Positions 1,191 through 21,502 are shown, counted from the stretch's first letter. The stretch is 32,000 nt of DNA from Kiritimatiella glycovorans (GCF_001017655.1 NZ_CP010904.1:2917724-2949723); one strand, 5' to 3'. The notes: a model not told the origin generated them from the letters alone. Made by a program: numbers and translations.

Positions 1191-1447
1191 ACAGGCGGCA
1201 GAGCGGAGCGGACGCTTCGGCAGCTTTGCCGATGGTGTGAACGGCAGCGGCACACGGGATGTACGGCTTGGCCCTGCCCGGTACGCGGACATGCAAATTC
1301 TCTGACCCTTTAGCCACTGAAAGGGAGCTCGGAGTCCGGCAGTGGCCGTATACCCCTGAAGGGGAAACGATAAACCGCCGGCAGAGCACCCACCTTGTTA
1401 CCGTGGTCCAGAGATGAGCATAACAGTCGGCCGGGCGGGGCCTTTTT
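1191..1447 (+). other. long structured 5' leader or small RNA between the promoter and the rarA start codon
   Basis: Series of local hairpins: TCGGCA-gctt-TGCCGA 1217-1232, GTGTG..CACAC 1235-1255, CCCTTT..AAAGGG 1306-1325, CCCC-tgaa-GGGG 1353-1364. A closing helix CCGCCGGC (1375-1382) / GCCGGGCGG (1430-1438) is followed by GGCC TTTTT, which abuts ATG 1448. The motif CGGCAG recurs five times. No family assigned. Confidence 0.3.
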
Positions 1448-5280: not shown

Positions 5281-6315
5281 CTACTCCCTCCCGCGACCGT
5301 GGGCTGCGGGGGCCCCGGCGATGTACCTCGCCAGATCCTCGATCCTGACCTGTCCCTGCGCGCGGTCGCGTTCGTCCATCAGCACCGCGACCGGCTGACG
5401 ATTTTTCCGCAGTTTGCTGAAGGCCTGCTGGAGGGTCGCGTCGGCCCGGATCCGTACGGCCTTGCGCACGAGCGGCCGCACCGGATCGTCCGGCCCCGTC
5501 TCCGGATCCATGAGATCGCAGAGATGCAGCGTGCCGATCACGTTATTCCGGCGTCCCCGGAATACCGCGCAGCGGTTGCGGCCGCTCTTCTGCAGGAGCC
5601 GTTCCGCGTCGCGCACCGCGGACTCGACCGACACCGCCGGCACCCGGTCGAGCGGGGTCATCAGCCGCCGCGCGGGTATGCGCCGCATCGCGATCACGTT
5701 CTCCATCATCTGGTTCTGGTGGGGCGTCAGGGCACCGTGGCGGATGCCCTCGGAAAAGTACATCCGCAGGCGCTGCGGCGAGAGCTGCAGCAGATCGCGG
5801 TGCGGGTCGGCGGGGGAGGTGCGCAGCAGCGCGCGGAAGAGCAGGCGCAGCGGAGTGGTCAGAGGACGGCATACGGCCAGGGATATCCGCAGGACCATCG
5901 CGCCGCGCGTCATCAGCTCCTCCGCCCGCGTCCGGAACAGGTTCTTGGGCAGCAGTTCGGCGAACAGGAACATGGGCGGCGTGAGCACGAGCGTCGCGGC
6001 GATCTCGGCGTTCCATGGGATCAGGCCGAACAGAACCCGCCCCCCTCCGGCGCCGACGCCGTGCGCCAGGAAGGAGGCCGTCACGGTCTGAGCCGCGAGG
6101 TAGTTGACCACGTTGTTGCAGAGCAGGACCGTAAAGACGAAGCGCTGGGGTTCGCGCAGCACCTCCTCCAGCCAGCGCGCGCGCCGCACGCCGTGGCGCG
6201 CGCGGTAGCGCAGGTGGATGCGGCTGACCATGTATCCGCCGGTCTCGCTCCCCGAGTAAAAGGCGGAGAGGATCAGCGCGCTCAGCAGTTTGACCCATGC
6301 GTCCCAGGCGGTCAT
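5281..6315 (-). CDS. DUF21 + CBS-pair membrane protein (CNNM/CorC-type) lacking the C-terminal CorC_HlyC domain
   Basis: ORF 5281..6543, with start moved to ATG 6315 (MTAWDAWVKLLSALILSAFYSGSETG...). This forms an ATGA overlap with the stop of the upstream paralog. It has a DUF21 TM region and then two CBS-like repeats, and the protein ends right after CBS2. Confidence 0.75.
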   Translation of the reverse strand: MTAWDAWVKLLSALILSAFYSGSETGGYMVSRIHLRYRARHGVRRARWLEEVLREPQRFVFTVLLCNNVVNYLAAQTVTASFLAHGVGAGGGRVLFGLIPWNAEIAATLVLTPPMFLFAELLPKNLFRTRAEELMTRGAMVLRISLAVCRPLTTPLRLLFRALLRTSPADPHRDLLQLSPQRLRMYFSEGIRHGALTPHQNQMMENVIAMRRIPARRLMTPLDRVPAVSVESAVRDAERLLQKSGRNRCAVFRGRRNNVIGTLHLCDLMDPETGPDDPVRPLVRKAVRIRADATLQQAFSKLRKNRQPVAVLMDERDRAQGQVRIEDLARYIAGAPAAHGRGRE

Positions 6316-7598
6316 GGCAGCGGCACCTTCAGTTCCTCCTCGGGCGAAGCGAGTTCGAGCAGGACTGTCTCGATCCGCCTGCCGTGCATCCGCTCCACCG
6401 TGAACGCAAGATTCTGCAGCCTCACCGTATCGCCCTCCCGGGGCACCCGCCCGAGCAGGTACACGATCAGCCCCGCGAGCGTGTCGAAGGGCAGCGATTC
6501 CAGCTCCGCCTCCGGCACGTAGCCTCGGAAGAGCGCGCGCCATTCGCGCACCGGCAGCCTGCCGCTGAGGCGGTAGCGCGCCTCGCCGAGCGTATCCACG
6601 TCGAGCGCCTGCCCGGCGTCGAATTCCCCGAGCACCTCTTCCAGCAGATCCTCGATCGTCACCACGCCCGCCAGCCCGCCGTACTCGTCGACCACGACCA
6701 CGAACTCGAGGTTCTCCTCGACGAAACGCCGCAGCAGTTCGTCCGCGCGCAGCATCTCGGGCACAAACTTCACGGGCCGCACGCGCCCGACCCCGTCGCG
6801 GCCGTCCCGCCGTGCAAAGTAGAGGTCGCGGACGCCGACGATCCCGATGATGCGATCCTCGTGATCCTCGTACACGGGGAGCGTGCTGATATCGCGCCGG
6901 CGCGCCGCCTCCAGCACCGGCCCCGGATCGCCGCGGCGGTCGAGCAGGAGCACATCCACCCGCGGCGTCATGATCTCGCTGATCCGGATGCCCGGCAGAT
7001 GCACGATGTCTTCGATGATCTCCTTTTCCTTCACGGGAACGGAATCGCTGCCGCGCGTCAGATCGAGCAGGATCCGCAGCTCCTCGCCCGTGATCATCCG
7101 CGTGGCCTCGCCGCCCTCGTGTCCGCCCCGGCGCGCGCGGACGGCGCGATACACTGCGCGGACCGGGGAGGTGAGCGCGAACCAGCCCCGAAGCGGAATC
7201 GCGGCCGCCCGGGAGAAGGCGAGCGGATAGGACACCCCCAGCGCCTTCGGAAGGATTTCGCCGAAGAGAATCACCAGCACCAGGAGGACGATCCCCGCCG
7301 CCACCTCGATCCAGCCCCCAGCCGCGCGGCCCAGATGCGTCGCCATTGCCGCGCCCGAGCAGAAGAAGAGCAGATTAACGAGCATATTCCCGAACAGAAC
7401 GGCGACCAGCAGCTCGGCGGGACGCGAGGAAAGCGAGACGATGGCCGCCGCCGTCCTGCCCTCCGAACGCGCGAGCTGATGGAGCTGGTCCCTCTTCAGA
7501 GAGAACAGCGCCGTTTCGGCCCCCGAGAAGAAGGCCGATCCGGCCAGCAGCAGGACCAGCCCCGCCAGTCCCGTTCCGTATTCGCTCAGTTGCTCCAT
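6312..7598 (-). CDS. DUF21-CBS-CorC_HlyC family protein (hemolysin-like / putative Mg2+/Co2+ efflux CNNM/CorC type)
   Basis: DUF21 signature SAFFSGAETALFSL, a CBS pair (IMTPRVDV..., VYEDHEDRIIGIVGVRDL) and a CorC_HlyC tail (YRLSGRLPVREW...FDTLAGLIVYLLGRVPREGDTV). Confidence 0.85.
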   Translation of the reverse strand: MEQLSEYGTGLAGLVLLLAGSAFFSGAETALFSLKRDQLHQLARSEGRTAAAIVSLSSRPAELLVAVLFGNMLVNLLFFCSGAAMATHLGRAAGGWIEVAAGIVLLVLVILFGEILPKALGVSYPLAFSRAAAIPLRGWFALTSPVRAVYRAVRARRGGHEGGEATRMITGEELRILLDLTRGSDSVPVKEKEIIEDIVHLPGIRISEIMTPRVDVLLLDRRGDPGPVLEAARRRDISTLPVYEDHEDRIIGIVGVRDLYFARRDGRDGVGRVRPVKFVPEMLRADELLRRFVEENLEFVVVVDEYGGLAGVVTIEDLLEEVLGEFDAGQALDVDTLGEARYRLSGRLPVREWRALFRGYVPEAELESLPFDTLAGLIVYLLGRVPREGDTVRLQNLAFTVERMHGRRIETVLLELASPEEELKVPLP

Positions 7599-11335: not shown

Positions 11336-11535
11336 AGGACGATCTCTTAGGCCGCCGCTCTTATCCGTGAAATTGGTGTCGTCCGTGGTCGTCCCCGAAA
11401 TTAAACAATCCGAGCCGAACCTCCGTGGTGCTTTCCGCGTTTTACCTCACGCAACCCTCCCCATCCGCTTTCCCTTTTTTCATTTCTCAACTTCGTGCCG
11501 ATGACGTACATTCGGCACTCAATCCCGCAAGGAGC

Positions 11536-14500
11536 ATGAGAATCTTGGATACGTCAACACTGCTCGAGCTTTACAGACCCATCTGGACGGCCCGGCGCGT
11601 GGATGAAATGGAACAGGCGCTCGCCCACCGCGGCGAGGCGTTCTTCTTCATCCCCGGCTCCGGTCACGAGGCCGCGGCGGCGCTGGCGCCGCACCTGACC
11701 GCCGCCGACTGGCTGCACTGCCACTACCGCGACAAGGCGCTCGCCCTGGCGCGCGGCGTCAGCGTGGAGTCGATGTTCGCCGCCCTGCTCGCGCGCGACC
11801 CGTCCGGCAGCGCGGGGCGCCGTATGCCCGATTTCCCCTGCGATCCGGAACTGAACATCCTCAGCACCCCCACGCTCGTCGGCAACAACGCCCTGCAGGC
11901 GGCCGGCGTCGCGGCGGCGGTGAAGGACCGCGAGGGCGCGCCGGTGGTCTACTGCGGGCTGGGCGACGGCGCGACGCAGGAAGGCGAGTTCTTCGAGGCG
12001 GTGGCGGAGGCCGTCCGCGCGACCCTGCCGGTGCTCTTCGTCGTTCAGGACAACCGCTACGCGCTGTCGACACTCACCGCAGGCCAGACGTTCTACTCGA
12101 CGCCCGACGGCAACCCCGAAACGTTCTACGGTCTCCCGATCCGCCGCGTCGAGGGCGCGGACGTCGCGGCGTGCCACGAGACCTTCGGCGCGGCCGTGGC
12201 CGAGGCGCGCGAACACCGCCGCCCGCAGATCGTCTGCATGCGCTGTGAGCGGCTGCAGAGTCATACGAACGCCGACGACCATACCGCGTACCGCACGGAG
12301 GAGGATCTGGCCGAGGCGGCGGAGCACGGCGATCCCCTGCGCAACCTGGAGCGTATGCTGATCGACGCGGGCGAGGAGGCGTCGCGGCTTCGGGCGATCG
12401 AGGAGGAATGCGAACAGGCCGTGCAGGACGCCCTCGCCGCCGCCCGTGCCGGGGCGGAACCGGAAGCGGCGCTCAGCGCGAAGAAGCCGCTGCCGGTCGA
12501 GCTGACCGACCCGAAACGCGAATATCGCGGCACGGGAGAACGCAAGCTCACCATGATCGCCGCCCTGCGCGCGGCCCTGCGCGTGCGGCTGGAGGAGGAA
12601 GACGCGGCGTACGTCTGGGGTGAGGACCTCGAAGACCCCAAAGGCGACGTCTTCGGGCTCGCGAAGGGACTCAGCTCCGCCTTCCCGGGCCGCGTGCGCA
12701 ACGCCCCGCTGAGCGAGGCCACCATCGTCGGCGCCGCCGTCGGCCAGGCGCTCGCGGGCCGCCGGCCGGTCGCGTGTCTGCAGTTCGCCGACTTCCTGCC
12801 GCCCGCGTTCAATCAGATCGCCTCGGAGCTGGGCACGATGTACTGGCGCACCAACGGGCGCCTGGAGGCGCCGGTGACCGTGCTCTCGGTCTGCGGCGGA
12901 TATCGCCCCGGCCTCGGGCCGTTTCACGCGCAGACGCCCTCCGCCGTGGCCGCCCACCTGCCGGGAATCGACGTCTTTCTGCCCTCGACCGCGGCCGACG
13001 CGGCGGGGCTGCTGCTGGCGGCGCTGCGCTCGGACCGGCCGTCGATCTTCTTCTATCCCAAAAACCTCCTGAATGACCGCAGCGTCGCGACGTCGGAGGA
13101 CATCGACCGCCACTTCGTTCCGATCGGGAAGGCGCGAATCGCGCGGGCGGGCGGCGACCTGACGCTCGTCGCGTGGGGCAGCACTATGCCCACGGCCCTT
13201 CGTACGGCGGAGGCCGTCGAGCAGGCCGGCCTCTCGGTCGAGGTCGTCGATCTGCGTACGCTCTCGCCGTGGGACCGCGAGGCGGTATTTGAATCCACCT
13301 CGAAAACCGGCCGGCTGCTGGTGATCGATGAAGACCACCAGACCTGCGGGATGGCGGGCGAGGTCTGCGCCGCGGTGGCGGAGGCGCAGGGCGAACGGGT
13401 TCGCGTGGCGCGGCTGGGCGCCGCCGACGCGTATGTCCCCTACCACTTCGGCAACCAGCTCGACGTGCTGCCGTCGTTCCGGCCCGTGCTCGAAAAGGCT
13501 GCGGAGATGCTCGATTGCTCCGTGCGCTGGAACCGGCGGGCCGAGGAGGAGGAAGGGCGGGTGACGGTCAAGACGCTGGGATCGAGTCCCTCCGACGAGA
13601 CGGTGAAGATCGTCGAACTGCACGCCGCCGCGGGCGAGGCGGTCGAAGAGGGCGCGCCGCTGGCGTCGGTCGAGGCGGACAAGGCGACGATGGAGATCGA
13701 GGCGCCGCTGGCGGGTACGGTGGAGAAGGTGCTGCTTTCGGAAGGCGACGAGGTGGACGTCGGGGCACCGCTGCTGACGCTGGTGCCGTCGGTGGAGGCC
13801 GCGGCGCGGCCGCAGACGACCGACGATCCCGGCATCCCGGTGGTCGAAAAGCAGCGCAGCGTGACGGAGGCGGCGGCCCCGGCGACGCAAGGACACGAGC
13901 GCGAGAGCGCCCCGACGGTGATCTCATCGATCTGCTCCGCCCTGGGATCGCAGCTGAAGACGAACGATGAGCTCGTGGAAATCTGTCCCGGCTGGTCGCC
14001 GGACGACGTCGTACAGCGTACGGGGATCCGGAAGCGGCACTGGATCGGCGAAGGCGAATCGGCGCTCTCGCTCGCCGTGGACGCCTGTCACAAACTCTTT
14101 GAACGCGAGGGCGTGACGGTCAACGACTTCGACGCCATCATCTGCAGCACGGGGACGCCGCCCTCGACCACCCCGTCGCTGGCCTGCCGGATCCTGAAGG
14201 AGCTCAGTCCCGAGGAGGGCGAGACGCTGATCCCGGCGCACGACATCAATGCGGCGTGTTCGGGCTACCTGTACGCCCTGCAGCAGGCCTGCGACATGCT
14301 CGAGCACGACCCCGGCGCGCGGATCCTGCTGGTGACGAGCGAGACGCTCTCGCCGATGCTGAATAAGGATGATCCGGGCACGTTTTTCCTGTTCGGTGAC
14401 GCCGCGACCGCTTCGCTGGTCTCGCGGGAACAGCGCGGGGGCAACCTCAACCTGCGGGTCGGGCGACCGGTACTCTCGGCGATGGGGGCCGAGGAGAAGG

Positions 14501-14886
14501 TGCTCTACGTGCCCTCGCTGCAGAGCGGGACGTTCATGGAGATGGACGGGCGGAGCGTATTCCGGATCGCCGTGCGGAAGATGATCGACATGCTCGACCG
14601 CGCCTGTGCGCAGGAGGGCGCGACGGTCGACGACCTTTCCCTGATTGTCCCGCACCAGGCGAACGGGAGGATTATTGAGGCGATACGCAAGGCCATCAAG
14701 TTTCCGACGGATAAGGTGTTCTACTACATTCGCGATTACGGCAACACCTCGTCGAACACCATCCCGCTCAGCCTCGAAGCGCTGCCCTCCGACCTCCCGC
14801 CCGGCGGGAAGATCGGGCTGACGGCATTCGGCGGCGGCTTCACCTTTGCCGCCGGCGTGGTGGAGACGCTCGAGCGGCCGCAATAA
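11536..14886 (+). CDS. fusion protein: 2-oxoacid dehydrogenase E1-alpha + E1-beta + lipoyl domain + KAS III (FabH-type 3-oxoacyl-ACP synthase III)
   Basis: ORF 11425..14886, with start at ATG 11536, 1 nt after AAGGAG (11529-11534). Approximate domain spans: E1-alpha 11536-12490 (TPP motif GDG at 11962-11970 ... N210; SHTNADDHTAYRTEED). E1-beta 12541-13524 (NAPLSEATIVGAAVG, LQFADFLPPAFNQI). Lipoyl domain 13561-13788 (VEADKATMEIEAP, Lys codon 13681-13683). Linker 13789-13917. KAS III 13918-14883 (Cys 14257-14259 in AACSGYLYAL, His 14653-14655 in PHQAN, Asn 14743-14745 in GNTSSNT). Confidence 0.85.
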   Translation: MRILDTSTLLELYRPIWTARRVDEMEQALAHRGEAFFFIPGSGHEAAAALAPHLTAADWLHCHYRDKALALARGVSVESMFAALLARDPSGSAGRRMPDFPCDPELNILSTPTLVGNNALQAAGVAAAVKDREGAPVVYCGLGDGATQEGEFFEAVAEAVRATLPVLFVVQDNRYALSTLTAGQTFYSTPDGNPETFYGLPIRRVEGADVAACHETFGAAVAEAREHRRPQIVCMRCERLQSHTNADDHTAYRTEEDLAEAAEHGDPLRNLERMLIDAGEEASRLRAIEEECEQAVQDALAAARAGAEPEAALSAKKPLPVELTDPKREYRGTGERKLTMIAALRAALRVRLEEEDAAYVWGEDLEDPKGDVFGLAKGLSSAFPGRVRNAPLSEATIVGAAVGQALAGRRPVACLQFADFLPPAFNQIASELGTMYWRTNGRLEAPVTVLSVCGGYRPGLGPFHAQTPSAVAAHLPGIDVFLPSTAADAAGLLLAALRSDRPSIFFYPKNLLNDRSVATSEDIDRHFVPIGKARIARAGGDLTLVAWGSTMPTALRTAEAVEQAGLSVEVVDLRTLSPWDREAVFESTSKTGRLLVIDEDHQTCGMAGEVCAAVAEAQGERVRVARLGAADAYVPYHFGNQLDVLPSFRPVLEKAAEMLDCSVRWNRRAEEEEGRVTVKTLGSSPSDETVKIVELHAAAGEAVEEGAPLASVEADKATMEIEAPLAGTVEKVLLSEGDEVDVGAPLLTLVPSVEAAARPQTTDDPGIPVVEKQRSVTEAAAPATQGHERESAPTVISSICSALGSQLKTNDELVEICPGWSPDDVVQRTGIRKRHWIGEGESALSLAVDACHKLFEREGVTVNDFDAIICSTGTPPSTTPSLACRILKELSPEEGETLIPAHDINAACSGYLYALQQACDMLEHDPGARILLVTSETLSPMLNKDDPGTFFLFGDAATASLVSREQRGGNLNLRVGRPVLSAMGAEEKVLYVPSLQSGTFMEMDGRSVFRIAVRKMIDMLDRACAQEGATVDDLSLIVPHQANGRIIEAIRKAIKFPTDKVFYYIRDYGNTSSNTIPLSLEALPSDLPPGGKIGLTAFGGGFTFAAGVVETLERPQ

Positions 14887-15011: not shown

Positions 15012-15085
15012 GGGCCCGTAGCTCAGTCGGTCAGAGCAGGAGACTCATAATCTCTTGGTCGGGGGTTCGAGTCCCTCCGGGCCCA
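15012..15085 (+). tRNA. tRNA with anticodon CAT; body resembles tRNA-Ile2 (lysidine) more than elongator or initiator tRNA-Met
   Basis: Clean cloverleaf. Acceptor GGGCCCG/CGGGCCC + A, D arm GCTC/GAGC, anticodon stem GGAGA/TCTCT, loop CTCATAA (CAT 15046-15048), variable loop TGGTC, T arm GGGGG-TTCGAGT-CCCTC. No encoded CCA. C4/C5 in the acceptor stem and the GAGCAGG..ACTCATAAT..TTGGTCG stretch match my recollection of E. coli ileX. It lacks the initiator hallmarks (C1xA72, three G-C pairs in the anticodon stem). Confidence 0.9.
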
Positions 15086-18105: not shown

Positions 18106-18774
18106 TCAGCCGGATTTATTCAATGCGCCCTGAAGATGAAGCTTATGTGAAAGCACGGCGAGAGTGGATGCGAGGTCCTCTCGCTGGAGGATAACCTCCT
18201 CCGGCACGTGGAGGCGGGTGGGGGTGAAGTTCCATATTCCGCGTATCCCGCCCGCGACCATTGCGTCGGCCACCTCCTGGGCGACGGCGGCCGGGACGGT
18301 GAGGATACCGAGCCGCACGTGCATCCGTCGCGCGAGATCCGCGAGCCGGTCGATATGCAGCACCGTTTTACCGTAGATCCTGCGGCCGACCGTCCCGGAG
18401 TCGACATCGAACGCGGCGGTGATGCGCAGGCCGTGCTGTTCGAATCCCCTGTACCCGAGCAGGGCCTGACCGAGCGAACCCGTGCCGGCGAGAAACGCGT
18501 CGGTGGTGTTCGACCAGCCGAGAAACTCCTCGACGGACTCGATCAGTTCATGCAGCGGAAATCCCAGCCGGGGTTTTCCCCGCGCGCCGGTGATTGCAAG
18601 GTCTTTACGGACAACGATCGGGTCCAGCTCCAGTTCGCGCGCCAGAACGGCGCCGGAGGCGTATTCCGCGCCCTCTTCGCGCATCCGTCGCAGCAGACGG
18701 AGATAAAGGGGGAGCCGCTTGAGCGTCGGCACCCCCGCCGTCTTACATGCCATGGCGTCCGGTTGATCACTCAT
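18106..18774 (-). CDS. rex: redox-sensing transcriptional repressor Rex
   Basis: N-terminal winged-helix (TLKRLPLYLRLL), Rossmann loop AGTGSLGQALLGY, and Rex-typical ILTVPAAVAQEVADAMVAGGIRGIWNFTP. The start is uncertain: ATG 18774, GTG 18792 or ATG 18753. Confidence 0.88.
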   Translation of the reverse strand: MSDQPDAMACKTAGVPTLKRLPLYLRLLRRMREEGAEYASGAVLARELELDPIVVRKDLAITGARGKPRLGFPLHELIESVEEFLGWSNTTDAFLAGTGSLGQALLGYRGFEQHGLRITAAFDVDSGTVGRRIYGKTVLHIDRLADLARRMHVRLGILTVPAAVAQEVADAMVAGGIRGIWNFTPTRLHVPEEVILQREDLASTLAVLSHKLHLQGALNKSG

Positions 18775-18922
18775 GACCCGTGAGTTAAACACGGGCCCCG
18801 CTATATTACGATCTTTTTCAATCGATATTATTATATTTATTGCTTGCCCGCCCGGCGCGCGCAGTGTATCGGTGTTTATATATCGATATCAGAGGAGCTA
18901 TATTAACGAGGGGGGGTACTCC
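18775..18922. promoter_or_regulatory. divergent rex / adhE control region with an AT-rich core and palindromes
   Basis: Inverted repeat CCCGTG-agttaaa-CACGGG (18777-18795). AT-rich stretch 18800-18845. ATCGATAT occurs twice (18821-18828, 18882-18889), the second inside the perfect 10-bp palindrome ATATCGATAT (18880-18889). Candidate -10 TATATT 18899-18904. A G7 tract (18910-18916) serves as the only SD-like element for adhE. Confidence 0.45.
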
Positions 18923-21502
18923 ATGACGGATGAAGCGAAAAAGGTATTGCAGGAGATGGTCGATCGTGTGCGAACGGCGCAGGAGCGCTATGCCGTGTTT
19001 GATCAGGAGGCGGTGGACGGGATATTCCGCCACGCCGCCCTCGCGGCGAACCGTGAACGCATCCGGCTTGCCCGCATGGCGGCGGAAGAGACCGGCATGG
19101 GCATCGTGGAGGATAAGGTCATCAAAAACCACTTCGCGAGTGAATTCATCTACAACAAGTACAAGGACACCCAGACCTGTGGGGTACTGGAGGAGGACCC
19201 CTCGTTCGGGATCCGCCGCATCGCGGAGCCGATCGGGGTAATCGCGGGCGTCGTGCCGACCACCAATCCCACCTCGACCGCGATTTTCAAGGCGCTGCTC
19301 GCCCTGAAAACCCGCAACGGCATCATTTTTTCGCCGCACCCGCGCGCAAAAGCGTGCACGGCGGAGGCCGCTCGAGTGGTCGGGCGTGCAGCCGTCGAAG
19401 CCGGCGCGCCGGAGGGTTTGATCGCCTGCATTGAGGAGCCTGCCGTCGAATTGTCGAACGCGCTTATGAAGCATCCCGACATCCGTCTCGTCCTGGCGAC
19501 CGGAGGGCCGGGCATGGTTCGCGCCGCCTACAGCAGCGGCAAGCCGGCGCTCGGCGTGGGAGCGGGCAATACACCGGCGGTGATCGATGAAACCGCCTGC
19601 GTGCGGACGGCCGTCAACAGCATCCTGCTCAGCAAGACATTCGACCACGGCGTCATCTGCGCCAGCGAACAGAGCGCCGTAGCCGTGGACGCGGTTTACG
19701 GCGAGGTCCGCGACGAGTTCGAGCGGCGCGGGGCGGCTATACTTACGCCCGGCCAGAAAGAAAAAGTCGGCGCCGTACTGCTCAAAGACGGAAAACTGAA
19801 CGCGGCGAACGTAGGCCAGCCAGCGGCAAAGATTGCCGCCGCAGCGGGCATCGAGGTGCCGCCGGAAACAAAGGTGCTCGTCGCCGAGGTCGATGAGGTC
19901 GGCGAACACGAACCCTTTGCCTTCGAGAAGCTCAGCCCGGTGCTGGCCCTCTACCGTGCCCCCGCATTCGACCGGGCCGTGGACCGGGCCGTGGAGCTGG
20001 TGACGTTCGGAGGAATCGGTCACACCTCGGTGCTGTATACCGATCCCCGCAATACGGAGCGCATCGACCGCTTCGGCGCGCGCATGAAGACCGGCCGGGT
20101 GCTGGTCAACATGCCCAGCAGCCAGGGCGCCATCGGCGATATCTACAACTTCAAACTCGAACCCTCGCTCACCCTCGGCTGCGGGAGCTGGGGCGGCAAC
20201 AGCGTGAGCGAAAACGTGGGGGTCAAACACCTGATGAACATCAAGACCGTGGCGGAACGGCGCGAGAACATGCTCTGGTTCCGGGTACCGCCGAAAGTGT
20301 ACTTCAAGTACGGCTGCCTGCCGGTCGCGATGGGTGAACTGGCCGGGCGGAAGCGCGCGCTTATCGTGACTGACAAGCCGCTCTACGATCTCGGCTTCGC
20401 CGACCGCATCGCCACGGTGCTCGACGGGATGGGCATCGATCACCAGACCTTCTATGATGTCCGGCCCGACCCCGATCTGGCCACGGTCCGCGCGGGACTG
20501 AAGGTGATGACCACGTTCCGGCCGGATGTCGTGATCGCACTGGGAGGCGGCTCGCCGATGGACGCCGCCAAGATCATGTGGCTCATGTATGAAAATCCGG
20601 GCATGAAGTTCGAGGACATGGCGATGCGGTTCATGGACATCCGCAAGCGGATCTACGCTTTCCCCGAAACGGGTCGCAGGGCGATCCTGGTCGCCGTGCC
20701 GACAACCAGTGGTACGGGTTCGGAAGTGACGCCTTTCGCGGTGGTCACCGACGACGCGACCGGGGCCAAGTACCCGATCGCGGACTACGCGCTGACGCCG
20801 GACATGGCGATCGTCGATCCGGAGCTGGTGATGCACATGCCGGCGAACCTGACGGCGTACGGCGGCGTGGATGCCCTGACACATGCCCTCGAGGCGATCG
20901 TCAGCGTCCTGAGCACGGAGTTCACAAACTGCCAGGCTCTGGAGGCGGTCAGGCTGCTGTTCAAGTACCTCCCCGACGCCTACGAGCACGGTGCGGCGGA
21001 CCGCAAAGCACGCGAGAAGGTTCATTACGCGGCGACCTTGGCGGGCATGGCGTTCGCCAATGCCTTCCTCGGCGTCTGCCACAGCATGGCGCACAAGCTC
21101 GGCGCCGCGTTCGACCTGCCGCACGGTCTGGCCAACGCGCTGCTGATCGGCGAGGTGATCCGCTACAACGCCACGGACCGACCGCTCAAACAGGCCGCCT
21201 TCCCGCAATACAGCTGGCCGACGGCCAGGGAGCGGTACGCGCGGGTTGCGGACTACCTGCAGCTCGGCGGCGCAACCCCGGACGAGAAGGTGGAACGGCT
21301 GATCGCCGCGGTCGGGGACCTGAAGCAGCGGCTGGACATACCGGCGACGATACGGGAGGCCGGGGTCCCCGAGGGTGCATTCCGGGAACGTCTCGACGAG
21401 CTGGCTGAAGATGCGTTCGACGATCAGTGCACAGGCGCCAACCCGCGCTACCCGCTCATCGGCGAACTCCGCCGTCTCTACCGTCGTGCGTACGGGAAAT
21501 AA
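18923..21502 (+). CDS. adhE: bifunctional acetaldehyde-CoA / alcohol dehydrogenase
   Basis: 859-aa product from ATG 18923. N-terminal aldehyde dehydrogenase half (VPTTNPTST, FDHGVICASEQS) fused to a C-terminal iron-type ADH half (GGGSPMDAAK, PTTSGTGSEVTPFAV, HSMAHKLG). Confidence 0.95.
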   Translation: MTDEAKKVLQEMVDRVRTAQERYAVFDQEAVDGIFRHAALAANRERIRLARMAAEETGMGIVEDKVIKNHFASEFIYNKYKDTQTCGVLEEDPSFGIRRIAEPIGVIAGVVPTTNPTSTAIFKALLALKTRNGIIFSPHPRAKACTAEAARVVGRAAVEAGAPEGLIACIEEPAVELSNALMKHPDIRLVLATGGPGMVRAAYSSGKPALGVGAGNTPAVIDETACVRTAVNSILLSKTFDHGVICASEQSAVAVDAVYGEVRDEFERRGAAILTPGQKEKVGAVLLKDGKLNAANVGQPAAKIAAAAGIEVPPETKVLVAEVDEVGEHEPFAFEKLSPVLALYRAPAFDRAVDRAVELVTFGGIGHTSVLYTDPRNTERIDRFGARMKTGRVLVNMPSSQGAIGDIYNFKLEPSLTLGCGSWGGNSVSENVGVKHLMNIKTVAERRENMLWFRVPPKVYFKYGCLPVAMGELAGRKRALIVTDKPLYDLGFADRIATVLDGMGIDHQTFYDVRPDPDLATVRAGLKVMTTFRPDVVIALGGGSPMDAAKIMWLMYENPGMKFEDMAMRFMDIRKRIYAFPETGRRAILVAVPTTSGTGSEVTPFAVVTDDATGAKYPIADYALTPDMAIVDPELVMHMPANLTAYGGVDALTHALEAIVSVLSTEFTNCQALEAVRLLFKYLPDAYEHGAADRKAREKVHYAATLAGMAFANAFLGVCHSMAHKLGAAFDLPHGLANALLIGEVIRYNATDRPLKQAAFPQYSWPTARERYARVADYLQLGGATPDEKVERLIAAVGDLKQRLDIPATIREAGVPEGAFRERLDELAEDAFDDQCTGANPRYPLIGELRRLYRRAYGK

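What the first reader, a model, noticed from the sequence alone, without database searches (positions are those of the whole stretch)
11536..14886. One polypeptide fusing E1-alpha, E1-beta, a lipoyl carrier and a complete KAS III (FabH), with no E2 core and no E3
A single uninterrupted reading frame concatenates modules that normally sit on three or four separate proteins.

1. A TPP-dependent 2-oxoacid dehydrogenase E1-alpha. It has the GDG...N TPP motif (GDG at 11962-11970) and a branched-chain-type loop SHTNADDHTAYRTEED.
2. An E1-beta (NAPLSEATIVGAAVG, LQFADFLPPAFNQI).
3. A lipoyl domain with the canonical E-A-D-K-A lipoyl-lysine (AAG 13681-13683).
4. After a low-complexity linker of about 40 aa, a KAS III condensing enzyme. 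Its Cys-His-Asn triad is intact: TGT 14257-14259, CAC 14653-14655, AAC 14743-14745.

What is absent matters equally. There is no E2 acyltransferase catalytic core and no peripheral-subunit-binding domain, and no E3 is present in the window.

In textbook metabolism, BCKDH E1/E2/E3 makes acyl-CoA, and a free FabH then uses that acyl-CoA to prime branched-chain fatty acid synthesis. Here the KAS III domain occupies the position of the E2 core.

This suggests that the S-acyl-dihydrolipoyl arm hands its acyl group directly to the KAS III cysteine, forming a CoA-bypassing primer channel. Alternatively, KAS III may act as a surrogate acyltransferase. I am not aware of a characterised enzyme with this architecture.
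Basis: partly seen in the sequence, partly recalled or inferred. Interest (0 to 1): 0.82.

Follow-up and report, generated by a model that had tools for sequence, protein, structure and literature searches.

The report
Ketoacid dehydrogenase fused to FabH
A single, widely conserved bacterial protein joins a 2-oxoacid decarboxylase (E1), its lipoyl swinging arm and a fatty-acid-initiating condensing enzyme (FabH), and probably makes branched fatty-acid primers directly from a keto acid without going through coenzyme A; this has not been tested biochemically.

Summary
Window 11536-14886 (+), from Kiritimatiella glycovorans, encodes one 1116-aa protein: E1-alpha, E1-beta, a lipoyl domain, a 43-aa linker and KAS III. 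All catalytic residues are intact. There is no E2 core, no E3-binding domain, and no E3 in the window.

It is not an assembly artefact. About 40 clusters at 50% identity and at least 80 species genomes carry the full-length fusion. They include MAGs labelled Kiritimatiellota, Lentisphaerae, Planctomycetota, Spirochaetota and Sumerlaeota.

Four indirect lines favour direct hand-off from the acyl-lipoyl arm to the KAS III cysteine:
1. The two residues that sandwich the CoA adenine in FabH are lost (Arg151 0/170, Trp32 10/170). The catalytic triad and ACP-docking arginines are kept.
2. In sister proteins the same E1-lipoyl cassette carries an E2 core, E2 core+ACP, a thioesterase, or KAS III-KR-ACP in that slot.
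3. All five cultured Kiritimatiellota make only even-numbered iso fatty acids, which need an isobutyryl primer from 2-oxoisovalerate.
4. Lipoate-ligase and KR genes are neighbours in some lineages.

Nothing is shown biochemically, and how the arm is re-oxidised is unknown. No description was found in the literature searched. I rate it a new variant of known kinds, of high interest.

The parts
11536..14886 (+). Whole gene: E1-alpha/E1-beta/lipoyl/KAS III fusion, 1116 aa plus stop. NCBI's alternative start is the TTG at 11545.
   Evidence: ORF list; 100% match to K. glycovorans P0001; start codons and Shine-Dalgarno context.
11593..12465 (+). E1-alpha module (TPP-binding), aa 20-310.
   Evidence: Pfam E1_dh, E = 3.4e-42. 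The best solved relative is the Thermus 2-oxo acid (branched-chain) dehydrogenase E1-alpha, 1UM9_A, E = 1.1e-39, against 1.7e-24 for PDH E1-alpha.
11962..12054 (+). TPP/Mg motif, from G143-D144-G145 to N173.
   Evidence: Invariant in 24/24 relatives.
12259..12294 (+). E1-alpha active-site loop, S242-H243-T244-N245-A-D247-D248...Y252-R253. By my alignment from memory, His243 corresponds to human BCKDH His291-alpha.
   Evidence: All of these residues are invariant in 24/24.
12544..13461 (+). E1-beta module (pyrimidine-binding plus C-terminal domain), aa 337-642, including invariant Glu394 and His464.
   Evidence: Pfam Transket_pyr and Transketolase_C; 1UM9_B, E = 6.7e-62; E394 and H464 invariant in 24/24.
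13516..13788 (+). Lipoyl domain, aa 661-751 in the model (Pfam 690-749).
   Evidence: Pfam Biotin_lipoyl, E = 3.5e-16; AF2 beta-barrel strands at 661-751.
13681..13683 (+). Lipoyl-lysine Lys716 within E-A-D-K-A.
   Evidence: AAG codon confirmed; EADKA invariant in 24/24.
13789..13917 (+). Flexible linker, aa 752-794. It contains the conserved motif DDPGIPVVEKQR (aa 763-774, nt 13822-13857).
   Evidence: pLDDT of 31-58; length of 39-46 aa and motif conservation.
13918..14865 (+). KAS III (FabH-type) condensing domain, aa 795-1110.
   Evidence: Pfam ACP_syn_III and ACP_syn_III_C; NCBIfam PRK09352 scores 251.8 bits against a cut-off of 249; the best PDB hits are all FabH, E = 1e-42.
14257..14259 (+). 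Active-site Cys908 (EcFabH Cys112).
   Evidence: 170/170.
14653..14655 (+). His1040 (EcFabH His244).
   Evidence: 167/170.
14743..14745 (+). Asn1070 (EcFabH Asn274).
   Evidence: 170/170.
14005..14007 (+). Asp824, at the position of EcFabH Trp32 (CoA adenine stacking). Trp820 (nt 13993-13995) sits at the EcFabH Thr28 position.
   Evidence: Position 32 is W in 10/170 fusion domains and 5/5 solved FabHs. Position 28 is W in 132/170. Residue role from PMC4606726.
14374..14376 (+). Pro947, at the position of EcFabH Arg151 (the other face of the adenine sandwich).
   Evidence: Arg in 0/170 (Q 88, P 49, F 18, Y 5) against 5/5 solved FabHs; role from PMC4606726.

Best explanation
The gene encodes a self-contained primer synthase for fatty-acid synthesis that starts from a 2-oxoacid instead of an acyl-CoA.

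Proposed cycle:
1. The TPP-dependent E1-alpha/beta module decarboxylates a short 2-oxoacid, most likely 2-oxoisovalerate and possibly also pyruvate.
2. E1 reductively acylates the lipoyl-Lys716 carried on the same chain.
3. The S-acyl-dihydrolipoyl arm enters the substrate tunnel of the C-terminal KAS III domain and transfers the acyl group to Cys908. This takes the place of the acyl-CoA loading step of ordinary FabH.
4. Free malonyl-ACP docks on the retained arginine patch. His1040 and Asn1070 drive decarboxylative Claisen condensation. The product is a 3-ketoacyl-ACP (4-methyl-3-oxopentanoyl-ACP from isobutyryl), which the type II FAS elongates to even-numbered iso fatty acids.
5. The dihydrolipoyl arm must then be re-oxidised by an E3 or some other disulfide reductase encoded elsewhere.

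What is shown here: the architecture, its conservation, intact catalytic residues in every module, loss of the CoA adenine contacts, interchangeability of the C-terminal acceptor domain, and the correlation with lipid phenotype.

What is inferred: steps 1 to 5 as chemistry, the substrate identity, a homodimeric assembly (both E1 alpha2-beta2 and FabH dimers have two-fold symmetry), and re-oxidation.
For: **Architecture and catalytic residues.**

**Deep conservation of the full-length fusion.**
- At least 120 proteins of 55-63% identity.
- About 40 full-length cluster representatives down to 37% identity.
- 80 of the 80 best genome loci are full length, spanning several differently labelled phyla.

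**KAS III functional positions in 170 family members.**
- Cys112 170, His244 167, Asn274 170.
- ACP-docking Arg36 147 and Arg249 163.
- CoA adenine sandwich lost: Arg151 0/170 and Trp32 10/170, against 5/5 for both in solved FabHs from diverse bacteria.
- The roles of Trp32, Arg151, Thr28 and Arg36 come from the E. coli FabH-CoA structures as described in PMC4606726.
- Phe87, which limits the E. coli pocket to acetyl (my knowledge), is Thr in 141/170.

**Interchangeable C-terminal partner.** The E1-alpha/beta-lipoyl cassette occurs with an E2 core (nine representatives), E2 core+ACP (P0192), a thioesterase (P0158) and KAS III-KR-ACP (P0126). The E2-core, thioesterase and unknown-C-terminus variants P0156, P0158 and P0153 nest inside the KAS clade in an NJ tree of the E1 part.

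**Phenotype.** K. glycovorans, three Pontiella species and Tichowtungia all have C18:0 plus only even-numbered iso fatty acids. For K. glycovorans the description also states that no odd-numbered fatty acids are formed and anteiso-C15:0 is not detected (PMC5148204; PMC7356697; PMC10880615).

**Neighbours.**
- An LplA/LipB-type gene lies within 2 kb upstream in the closest relatives: directly upstream (about 0.1-0.4 kb) in L005, L006 and L008, and about 2 kb upstream in L002.
- An SDR/KR gene lies directly downstream in Spirochaetota loci.

**E1 type.** The E1 is closest to the Thermus branched-chain E1 among solved structures.
Against: - There is no biochemical evidence of any kind.
- No E3 is linked to the gene. 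It is absent from the window and lies within 10 kb in only 2 of 85 related loci, so multiple turnover is unexplained.
- I could not examine the rest of the K. glycovorans genome. A separate E2, E3 or canonical fabH may exist.
- The organisms also make straight C18:0, so either E1 accepts pyruvate as well or there is another initiator.
- The residue counts are not phylogenetically independent, because 120 of the 170 sequences are 55-63% identical relatives.
- A Trp appears one helical turn away (the Thr28 position) and could conceivably still contact a nucleotide.
- The lipoyl domain follows E1-beta with almost no flexible tether.
- The AF2 model has a pTM of only 0.65.
Confidence: 0.6

Rival explanations
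1. Surrogate E2. The KAS III domain acts only as a transacylase, moving the acyl group from the lipoyl arm through Cys908 to free CoA (giving isobutyryl-CoA) or to holo-ACP (giving isobutyryl-ACP). Condensation is then done by another enzyme.
For: FabH enzymes have a known acyl-CoA:ACP transacylase side activity (my knowledge). KAS III occupies the E2-core slot. In the relative P0192 an E2 core is followed by an ACP, so lipoyl-to-carrier transfer does occur in this family.
Against: A pure transacylase has no need for the decarboxylation residues, yet His and Asn are retained in 167 and 170 of 170. The CoA adenine contacts are lost, which argues against CoA as the acceptor. The variant P0126 adds KR and ACP after KAS III, the partners expected for a condensing enzyme. 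Transfer to ACP cannot be excluded, but it would still bypass CoA.
Confidence: 0.15
2. A simple co-expression fusion (Rosetta stone). The E1-lipoyl part works with a separate E2 and E3 encoded elsewhere to make isobutyryl-CoA, which diffuses to the fused KAS III and is used as by any FabH.
For: The rest of the genome was not searched. An Lpd gene lies near the fusion in L071 and L063. NCBI and JGI annotate the protein simply as FabH or as a BCKDH E1.
Against: - No E2 core was found in the window or within 10 kb in 85 loci.
- There is no peripheral-subunit-binding domain.
- The lipoyl domain is attached to E1 instead of to an E2 core, so a free E2 core would have to accept a foreign lipoyl domain.
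- The CoA adenine contacts are lost in the KAS III domain.
- The same slot is filled by an E2 core in sister proteins. That makes sense only if the C-terminal domain serves the tethered arm.
Confidence: 0.12
3. Starter module for a specialised lipid or polyketide, not for bulk membrane fatty acids.
For: The variant P0126 is fused to KR and ACP like a PKS module. In L002 an AMP-binding/PP-binding/thioesterase gene and a phosphopantetheinyl transferase gene lie about 9-10 kb upstream.
Against: The gene is single-copy and sits among unrelated housekeeping genes in most genomes, with no conserved biosynthetic cluster. It is near-universal in a phylum whose bulk fatty acids are iso-even.
Confidence: 0.08
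4. Assembly or annotation artefact: a missed frameshift or stop joins ordinary bkd and fabH genes.
For: None found.
Against: The frame is uninterrupted and GC3 is uniform. The same junction, with a conserved linker motif, occurs in more than 170 sequences from independent assemblies, including Mb-scale contigs up to 4.1 Mb.
Confidence: 0.01

Closest known systems
Branched-chain 2-oxoacid dehydrogenase complex (E1-alpha/beta, E2, E3) feeding a free FabH, as in Bacillus, Staphylococcus and Listeria
   Same: The chemistry for E1 is the same (TPP decarboxylation, reductive acylation of a lipoyl-lysine). The final condensation with malonyl-ACP by a Cys-His-Asn KAS III is the same. The physiological output, branched fatty-acid primers, is the same.
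   Different: Here there is no E2 catalytic core and no peripheral-subunit-binding domain, and E1, the lipoyl domain and KAS III are on one chain. The acyl-CoA intermediate is probably skipped, because the KAS III domain lacks the CoA adenine-binding Trp32 and Arg151. Only the isobutyryl-type primer seems to be made, since the organisms have iso-even fatty acids only.
Single-chain E1-alpha/beta-lipoyl-E2 core proteins, with or without a C-terminal ACP (relatives found here: P0156, P0181, P0194, P0198, P0199, P0204, P0205, P0207, P0214, P0192); uncharacterised as far as I know
   Same: They share a homologous E1-alpha/beta-lipoyl cassette (34-49% identity over aa ~10-780), the same domain order, and the same absence of an E3-binding domain.
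   Different: Their C-terminal acceptor is the classical acyltransferase core (to CoA, or to the fused ACP) and not a carbon-carbon bond-forming condensing enzyme.
Quinocarcin/naphthyridinomycin C2-unit pathway (two-component transketolase/E1-like enzyme, lipoyl E2-like protein, ACP; Peng et al. 2012 PNAS). Recalled from memory; cited second-hand in PMC13249901. The paper itself is not held.
   Same: A TPP enzyme loads a lipoyl arm, and the acyl group goes on to a carrier protein without a CoA intermediate. This is a precedent for CoA-free hand-off from lipoyl.
   Different: That pathway uses a ketose donor and an E2-type acyltransferase domain, has separate proteins, and feeds an NRPS. No ketosynthase takes the acyl group from lipoyl.
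KAS III-like enzymes that take acyl groups from carrier proteins instead of CoA (for example DpsC- or CerJ-type enzymes; from memory, not tested here)
   Same: They share the KAS III fold and active-site cysteine, and accept an acyl thioester presented on a protein-bound arm.
   Different: Their donor is a phosphopantetheinyl-ACP, not a dihydrolipoyl-lysine. They are stand-alone proteins from secondary metabolism.

Membership tests
Heterotetramer-type 2-oxoacid dehydrogenase E1 (alpha/beta, TPP-dependent) | E1_dh, Transket_pyr and Transketolase_C domains score above the curated cut-offs. | tested here: met
   144.9, 78.4 and 101.4 bits against cut-offs of 22, 27 and 25.9.
Heterotetramer-type 2-oxoacid dehydrogenase E1 (alpha/beta, TPP-dependent) | TPP/Mg motif GDG...N, the E1-alpha active-site His loop, and the E1-beta Glu and His. 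| tested here: met
   G143, D144, G145, N173, H243, E394 and H464 are invariant in 24/24. The mapping to known catalytic residues is from my own knowledge.
Heterotetramer-type 2-oxoacid dehydrogenase E1 (alpha/beta, TPP-dependent) | Substrate is a branched-chain 2-oxoacid. | tested here: inconclusive
   The best solved relative is the Thermus branched-chain E1. NCBIfam's best E1 models are PDH-type but score below their cut-offs. The lipid phenotype points to 2-oxoisovalerate. No assay has been done.
Lipoyl domain | Biotin_lipoyl fold with the lysine in a D-K-A type hairpin. | tested here: met
   Pfam 59.2 bits; EADKA invariant; beta-barrel in the AF2 model.
Lipoyl domain | The lysine is actually lipoylated. 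| not testable with these tools
   Only indirect evidence exists: an LplA/LipB-family gene upstream of the fusion on four distinct contigs (L005, L006, L008, and L002 = L007).
FabH / KAS III | ACP_syn_III and ACP_syn_III_C domains with the Cys-His-Asn triad. | tested here: met
   (170, 167 and 170 of 170).
FabH / KAS III | NCBIfam FabH model cut-offs. | tested here: inconclusive
   PRK09352 is just met (251.8 against 249). TIGR00747 fabH is not met (216.2 against 292.1).
FabH / KAS III | Acyl-CoA donor site: the adenine is sandwiched by Trp32 and Arg151 (E. coli numbering). | tested here: not met
   Asp824 and Pro947 occupy these positions here. Across the family, Arg is found in 0/170 and Trp in 10/170, against 5/5 for both in solved FabHs. 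Roles per PMC4606726.
FabH / KAS III | ACP docking patch (Arg36, Arg249, Lys214, Lys256). | tested here: met
   147, 163, 140 (K/R) and 147 (K/R) of 170. Assignment of the patch is from my knowledge of Zhang et al. 2001.
Classical 2-oxoacid dehydrogenase complex (E1+E2+E3) | E2 acyltransferase core (PF00198). | tested here: not met
   Absent from the protein, from the window and from 85 related loci. A genome-wide search was not possible.
Classical 2-oxoacid dehydrogenase complex (E1+E2+E3) | Peripheral-subunit-binding domain (PF02817). | tested here: not met
   No hit at E <= 0.01.
Classical 2-oxoacid dehydrogenase complex (E1+E2+E3) | A dedicated E3 (dihydrolipoyl dehydrogenase). | tested here: inconclusive
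   Not in the window. An E3-like gene lies within 10 kb in 2/85 loci only.

The most novel reading that the evidence does not exclude
This would be a previously undescribed enzyme class: a 2-oxoacid:malonyl-ACP primer synthase in which a lipoyl swinging arm, not CoA or ACP, delivers the acyl group to a ketosynthase cysteine. It would be the main or sole initiator of iso-even fatty-acid synthesis in Kiritimatiellota and would be used in several other phyla. It would belong to a wider family in which one E1-alpha/beta-lipoyl cassette is plugged into interchangeable acyl acceptors (E2 core, ACP, thioesterase, ketosynthase).
Probability: 0.55. Interest if true: 0.88.

Novelty: new variant of a known kind. 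Interest (0 to 1): 0.8.

Why it matters
If the hand-off is direct, fatty-acid initiation has a route that needs no acyl-CoA, and the lipoyl arm can serve a carbon-carbon bond-forming enzyme. Neither idea is in current textbooks.

- **Chemotaxonomy.** It would explain why every cultured Kiritimatiellota strain makes only even-numbered iso fatty acids. It would also give a genetic marker for that lipid signature in sediments and guts, where these anaerobes are common.
- **Enzymology.** It exposes a modular E1-lipoyl cassette with swappable acceptor domains. This offers a natural experiment on how swinging-arm enzymes evolve.
- **Engineering.** It would be a compact single-gene tool for turning 2-oxoacids directly into branched fatty-acid or polyketide starters.
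- **Testability.** The hypothesis can be tested with one recombinant protein and two point mutants.

Tried and rejected
- **Source contig.** A look-up of the exact K. glycovorans protein in the contig index found nothing on record. Context therefore came from homologues.
[quoted passage not shown] Peng et al. 2012 is not held.
- **Literature.** Six searches for the architecture or its biology found nothing.
- **Split forms.** I suspected natural split forms (lipoyl-KAS III of about 415-450 aa) among the representatives. Most start mid-domain without Met and are contig-edge fragments, so I did not use them. Only P0268 starts with Met at the lipoyl boundary, and that remains unresolved.
- **Conserved neighbours.** Unbiased clustering of neighbours in 85 loci found no partner conserved across phyla. 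PtsP is specific to the Kiritimatiellota-labelled loci, plus the one Gammaproteobacteria MAG.
- **Directed neighbour search.** tblastn found no E2 core, AcpP, FabD, FabF, LipA or stand-alone FabH in any flank.
- **Geometry.** Model coordinates are not exposed, so I could not test whether the arm reaches both active sites.
- **Biotin carrier.** I rejected a biotin-carrier reading of the domain. The motif is EADKA, not the biotin-type AMKM (from my own knowledge), and an LplA-type ligase is a neighbour.

Full report
**1. What is in the sequence**

A single open frame runs 11425..14886 on the + strand. The first ATG (11536) gives a 1116-aa protein. NCBI's model of the same gene starts three codons later at a TTG, 10 nt after an AGGAG. 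The protein is 100% identical to a Kiritimatiella glycovorans entry on a 2.95-Mb contig, so the window is from that organism.

- E1_dh, aa 20-310
- Transket_pyr, aa 337-513
- Transketolase_C, aa 531-642
- Biotin_lipoyl, aa 690-749
- ACP_syn_III, aa 903-969
- ACP_syn_III_C, aa 1024-1110

NCBIfam places aa 795-1110 just above the cut-off of a KAS III model (251.8 against 249 bits), but below the TIGR00747 fabH cut-off. GC3 is flat across the domains, 0.88-0.91.

**2. It is a conserved gene, not an artefact**

- A word-indexed search returned 120 full-length proteins of 55-63% identity with the same six domains. The named sources are Kiritimatiellia, Pontiella and 'Verrucomicrobia' genomes, and several of these proteins lie on contigs of 1.2-4.1 Mb.
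- An exhaustive HMMER pass over 1.84 billion cluster representatives found about 40 further full-length representatives, down to 37% identity.
- A scan of one genome per species returned 80 loci, all covering essentially the whole query. They come from MAGs labelled Kiritimatiellia/Pontiella/Tichowtungia, Lentisphaerae, Pirellulaceae/Planctomycetaceae/Anammoximicrobium, Spirochaetaceae/Alkalispirochaeta, Sumerlaeota, and one Gammaproteobacteria MAG. MAG labels can be wrong, but the spread over several phyla is clear.

In a 24-sequence alignment the following are invariant:
- the TPP motif (G143-D144-G145...N173)
- the E1-alpha loop S-H243-T-N-x-D-D...Y-R
- E1-beta Glu394 and His464
- the lipoyl E-A-D-K716-A
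- Cys908, His1040 and Asn1070

**3. Surroundings**

The window has no E2, E3 or FAS gene. Its genes are:

| Side | Genes |
|---|---|
| Upstream of the fusion | HAD hydrolase, MgsA, RNase Y, two CNNM/CorC genes, a TPR protein, TraB/GumN, a hypothetical |
| Downstream of the fusion | tRNA-Met, GH5, Rex, AdhE, ABC auxiliary proteins, SerRS, MutL, an M24 peptidase |

These come; the TPR label rests on reading the translation, not on a Pfam scan. The gene appears monocistronic.

Unbiased clustering of all ORFs in 85 related loci found no neighbour conserved across phyla. Lineage-specific neighbours are informative, though:
- An LplA/LipB-family gene lies upstream on the same strand in the closest relatives (L005, L006, L002 = L007, L008).
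- An SDR/KR-type reductase lies directly downstream in seven Spirochaetota loci.

Directed tblastn found an Lpd-like gene within 10 kb in only two loci. It found no E2 core, AcpP, FabD, FabF, LipA or separate FabH anywhere.

**4. Evidence on mechanism**

(a) *Donor site.* I used E. coli FabH as the ruler. My recalled sequence proved identical to PDB 1HN9. I aligned 170 fusion KAS III domains with five solved FabHs from diverse bacteria.

| EcFabH position | Role | Solved FabHs | Fusion family (n = 170) |
|---|---|---|---|
| Cys112 / His244 / Asn274 | catalytic triad | Cys 4/5 (one chain has Ala); His, Asn 5/5 | 170 / 167 / 170 |
| Arg36, Arg249 | ACP docking | 5/5 | 147, 163 |
| Arg151 | stacks on CoA adenine | Arg 5/5 | Arg 0/170 (Gln, Pro, Phe, Tyr) |
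| Trp32 | stacks on CoA adenine | Trp 5/5 | Trp 10/170 (Ala, Asp, Glu) |
| Thr28 | H-bonds the adenine | Thr 4/5, Ser 1/5 | Trp 132/170 |
| Phe87 | restricts the E. coli pocket to acetyl (my knowledge) | Phe 4/5 | Thr 141/170 |

The roles of Trp32, Arg151, Thr28 and Arg36 are taken from the E. coli FabH-CoA structures as described in PMC4606726. The domain therefore looks like a working condensing enzyme that still binds malonyl-ACP but no longer has the nucleotide-binding face for acyl-CoA. The counts are not phylogenetically independent.

(b) *Interchangeable acceptor.* Proteins sharing the same E1-alpha/beta-lipoyl cassette (34-50% identity over aa ~10-780) carry different C-terminal domains:
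- an E2 core (nine representatives)
- an E2 core plus ACP (P0192)
- a thioesterase (P0158)
- an unknown domain (P0153)
- nothing
- KAS III followed by KR and ACP (P0126)

None has an E3-binding domain. In a crude NJ tree of the E1 part (no support values), the E2-core, thioesterase and unknown variants P0156, P0158 and P0153 nest inside the KAS clade, so the partner has been swapped more than once. It makes functional sense only if the C-terminal domain unloads the tethered arm.

(c) *Phenotype.* The K. glycovorans description reports i-C14:0 and C18:0 as major fatty acids, with i-C18:0 also present. No odd-numbered fatty acids are formed and anteiso-C15:0 is not detected. The organism grows without vitamins or yeast extract (PMC5148204). 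Pontiella desulfatans, P. sulfatireligans, P. agarivorans and Tichowtungia aerotolerans have the same pattern: C18:0 plus i-C12, i-C14, i-C16, i-C18 and i-C20 (PMC7356697; PMC10880615). Even-numbered iso chains require an isobutyryl primer, derived from 2-oxoisovalerate. The absence of iso-odd and anteiso chains means that the leucine- and isoleucine-derived primers are not used. A selective E1 wired directly to the initiating condensing enzyme would explain this. The E1 is closest to the Thermus branched-chain E1 among solved structures. This is correlation, not proof.

(d) *Structure.* An AF2 model built from the 24-sequence alignment has a mean pLDDT of 78.6 and a pTM of 0.65. The E1, lipoyl and KAS III domains are folded, and the linker at 752-794 is disordered. 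Coordinates are not exposed, so I could not test reach.

**5. Most likely mechanism**

1. E1 decarboxylates 2-oxoisovalerate (perhaps also pyruvate) and acylates its own lipoyl-Lys716.
2. The acyl-dihydrolipoyl arm loads Cys908 of KAS III.
3. Malonyl-ACP condenses to give a 3-ketoacyl-ACP, which enters type II FAS.
4. The reduced arm is re-oxidised by an unidentified E3-like activity.

I put about 0.6 on this full chain. I put about 0.8 on the looser statement that the protein primes lipid synthesis from a 2-oxoacid, and more than 0.95 on it being a real multi-domain enzyme.

Rivals:
- KAS III acts as a mere transacylase to CoA or ACP (0.15).
- The fusion is only for co-expression, with a separate E2 and E3 and a free acyl-CoA (0.12).
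- It is a starter module for a specialised lipid (0.08).
- It is an artefact (0.01).

**6. Comparison with what is known**

It works like a BCKDH-plus-FabH pathway collapsed into one chain with the E2/CoA step removed. It passes the membership tests for E1, the lipoyl domain and the KAS III fold and triad. It fails the tests for a classical complex (no E2 core, no PSBD) and for the acyl-CoA donor site of FabH.

The nearest conceptual precedent for CoA-free unloading of a lipoyl arm is the quinocarcin/naphthyridinomycin C2 pathway. I recall this from memory and it is cited second-hand in PMC13249901. That pathway uses an E2-type acyltransferase and an ACP, not a ketosynthase.

Public databases label the protein 'beta-ketoacyl-ACP synthase 3', 'putative transketolase' or '2-oxoisovalerate dehydrogenase E1 component'. 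Six full-text searches found no paper describing the architecture. The library does not cover most subscription journals, so prior description cannot be excluded.

**7. Open problems**

- Re-oxidation of the arm.
- The source of the straight-chain C18:0 primer.
- The function of the conserved linker motif DPGxPxxE(K/R)R at aa 763-774.
- The meaning of the Trp shifted to the Thr28 position.
- Whether the near-rigid E1-beta-to-lipoyl junction (an invariant 16 aa) allows the arm to reach the E1 site in cis or only across a dimer.

**8. Verdict**

I rate it a new variant of known kinds (a 2-oxoacid dehydrogenase whose E2 core is replaced by a ketosynthase), with interest 0.8.

Noticed in passing
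window 1268-1445 (+): 6S (SsrS) RNA gene, Rfam RF00013, 88.2 bits against a gathering score of 46.4. It lies between the HAD-family gene and the MgsA/RarA gene.
   Followed up: no
window 15012-15085 (+): tRNA-Met (CAT), 126 nt after the stop of the fusion gene, in a 1.1-kb gap where GC falls to 0.58. It suggests the fusion gene is monocistronic.
   Followed up: partly
window 18106-18792 (-) and 18773-21502 (+): A Rex-type redox repressor (Put_DNA-bind_N plus CoA_binding) lies next to a bifunctional AdhE (Aldedh plus Fe-ADH). This fits the ethanol-forming fermentation reported for the organism.
   Followed up: no
window 5281-6543 (-) and 6312-7598 (-): Two adjacent CNNM/CBS (CorC-type) transporter paralogues. 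Their longest ORFs overlap by about 230 nt, so the start of the 5281-6543 gene is probably further in.
   Followed up: no
window 13822-13857 (+), aa 763-774: A conserved short motif, DDPGIPVVEKQR (family consensus DPG-T/R-P-x-x-E-K/R-R), sits inside the otherwise variable lipoyl-to-KAS III linker. It is also recognisable in the non-KAS variant P0153. Its function is unknown; it may be a docking peptide.
   Followed up: partly
P0126 = L004:10001-15829: A 1942-aa relative extends the same fusion with a KR domain and a phosphopantetheine-binding ACP, giving E1-alpha/beta-lipoyl-KAS III-KR-ACP. It sits among unrelated genes on a 64-kb MAG contig.
   Followed up: partly
P0158, P0192, P0153 (representative proteins): The E1-alpha/beta-lipoyl cassette is fused to a thioesterase (P0158), to an E2 core plus ACP (P0192), or to a roughly 240-aa C-terminal region with no Pfam hit (P0153). 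As far as I know, none of these architectures is characterised.
   Followed up: partly
L058, L061, L069, L070, L078, L079, L081 (just downstream of the fusion gene): In Spirochaetota loci a short-chain dehydrogenase/KR-type gene follows the fusion on the same strand. It may be the ketoreductase for the 3-ketoacyl product.
   Followed up: partly
L001 and L003, upstream of the fusion gene; 26 loci in all: In the Pontiella clade a PtsP-like gene (GAF plus PEP-utilizer domains, about 758 aa) is a conserved divergent neighbour of the fusion gene. Its relevance is unknown.
   Followed up: no
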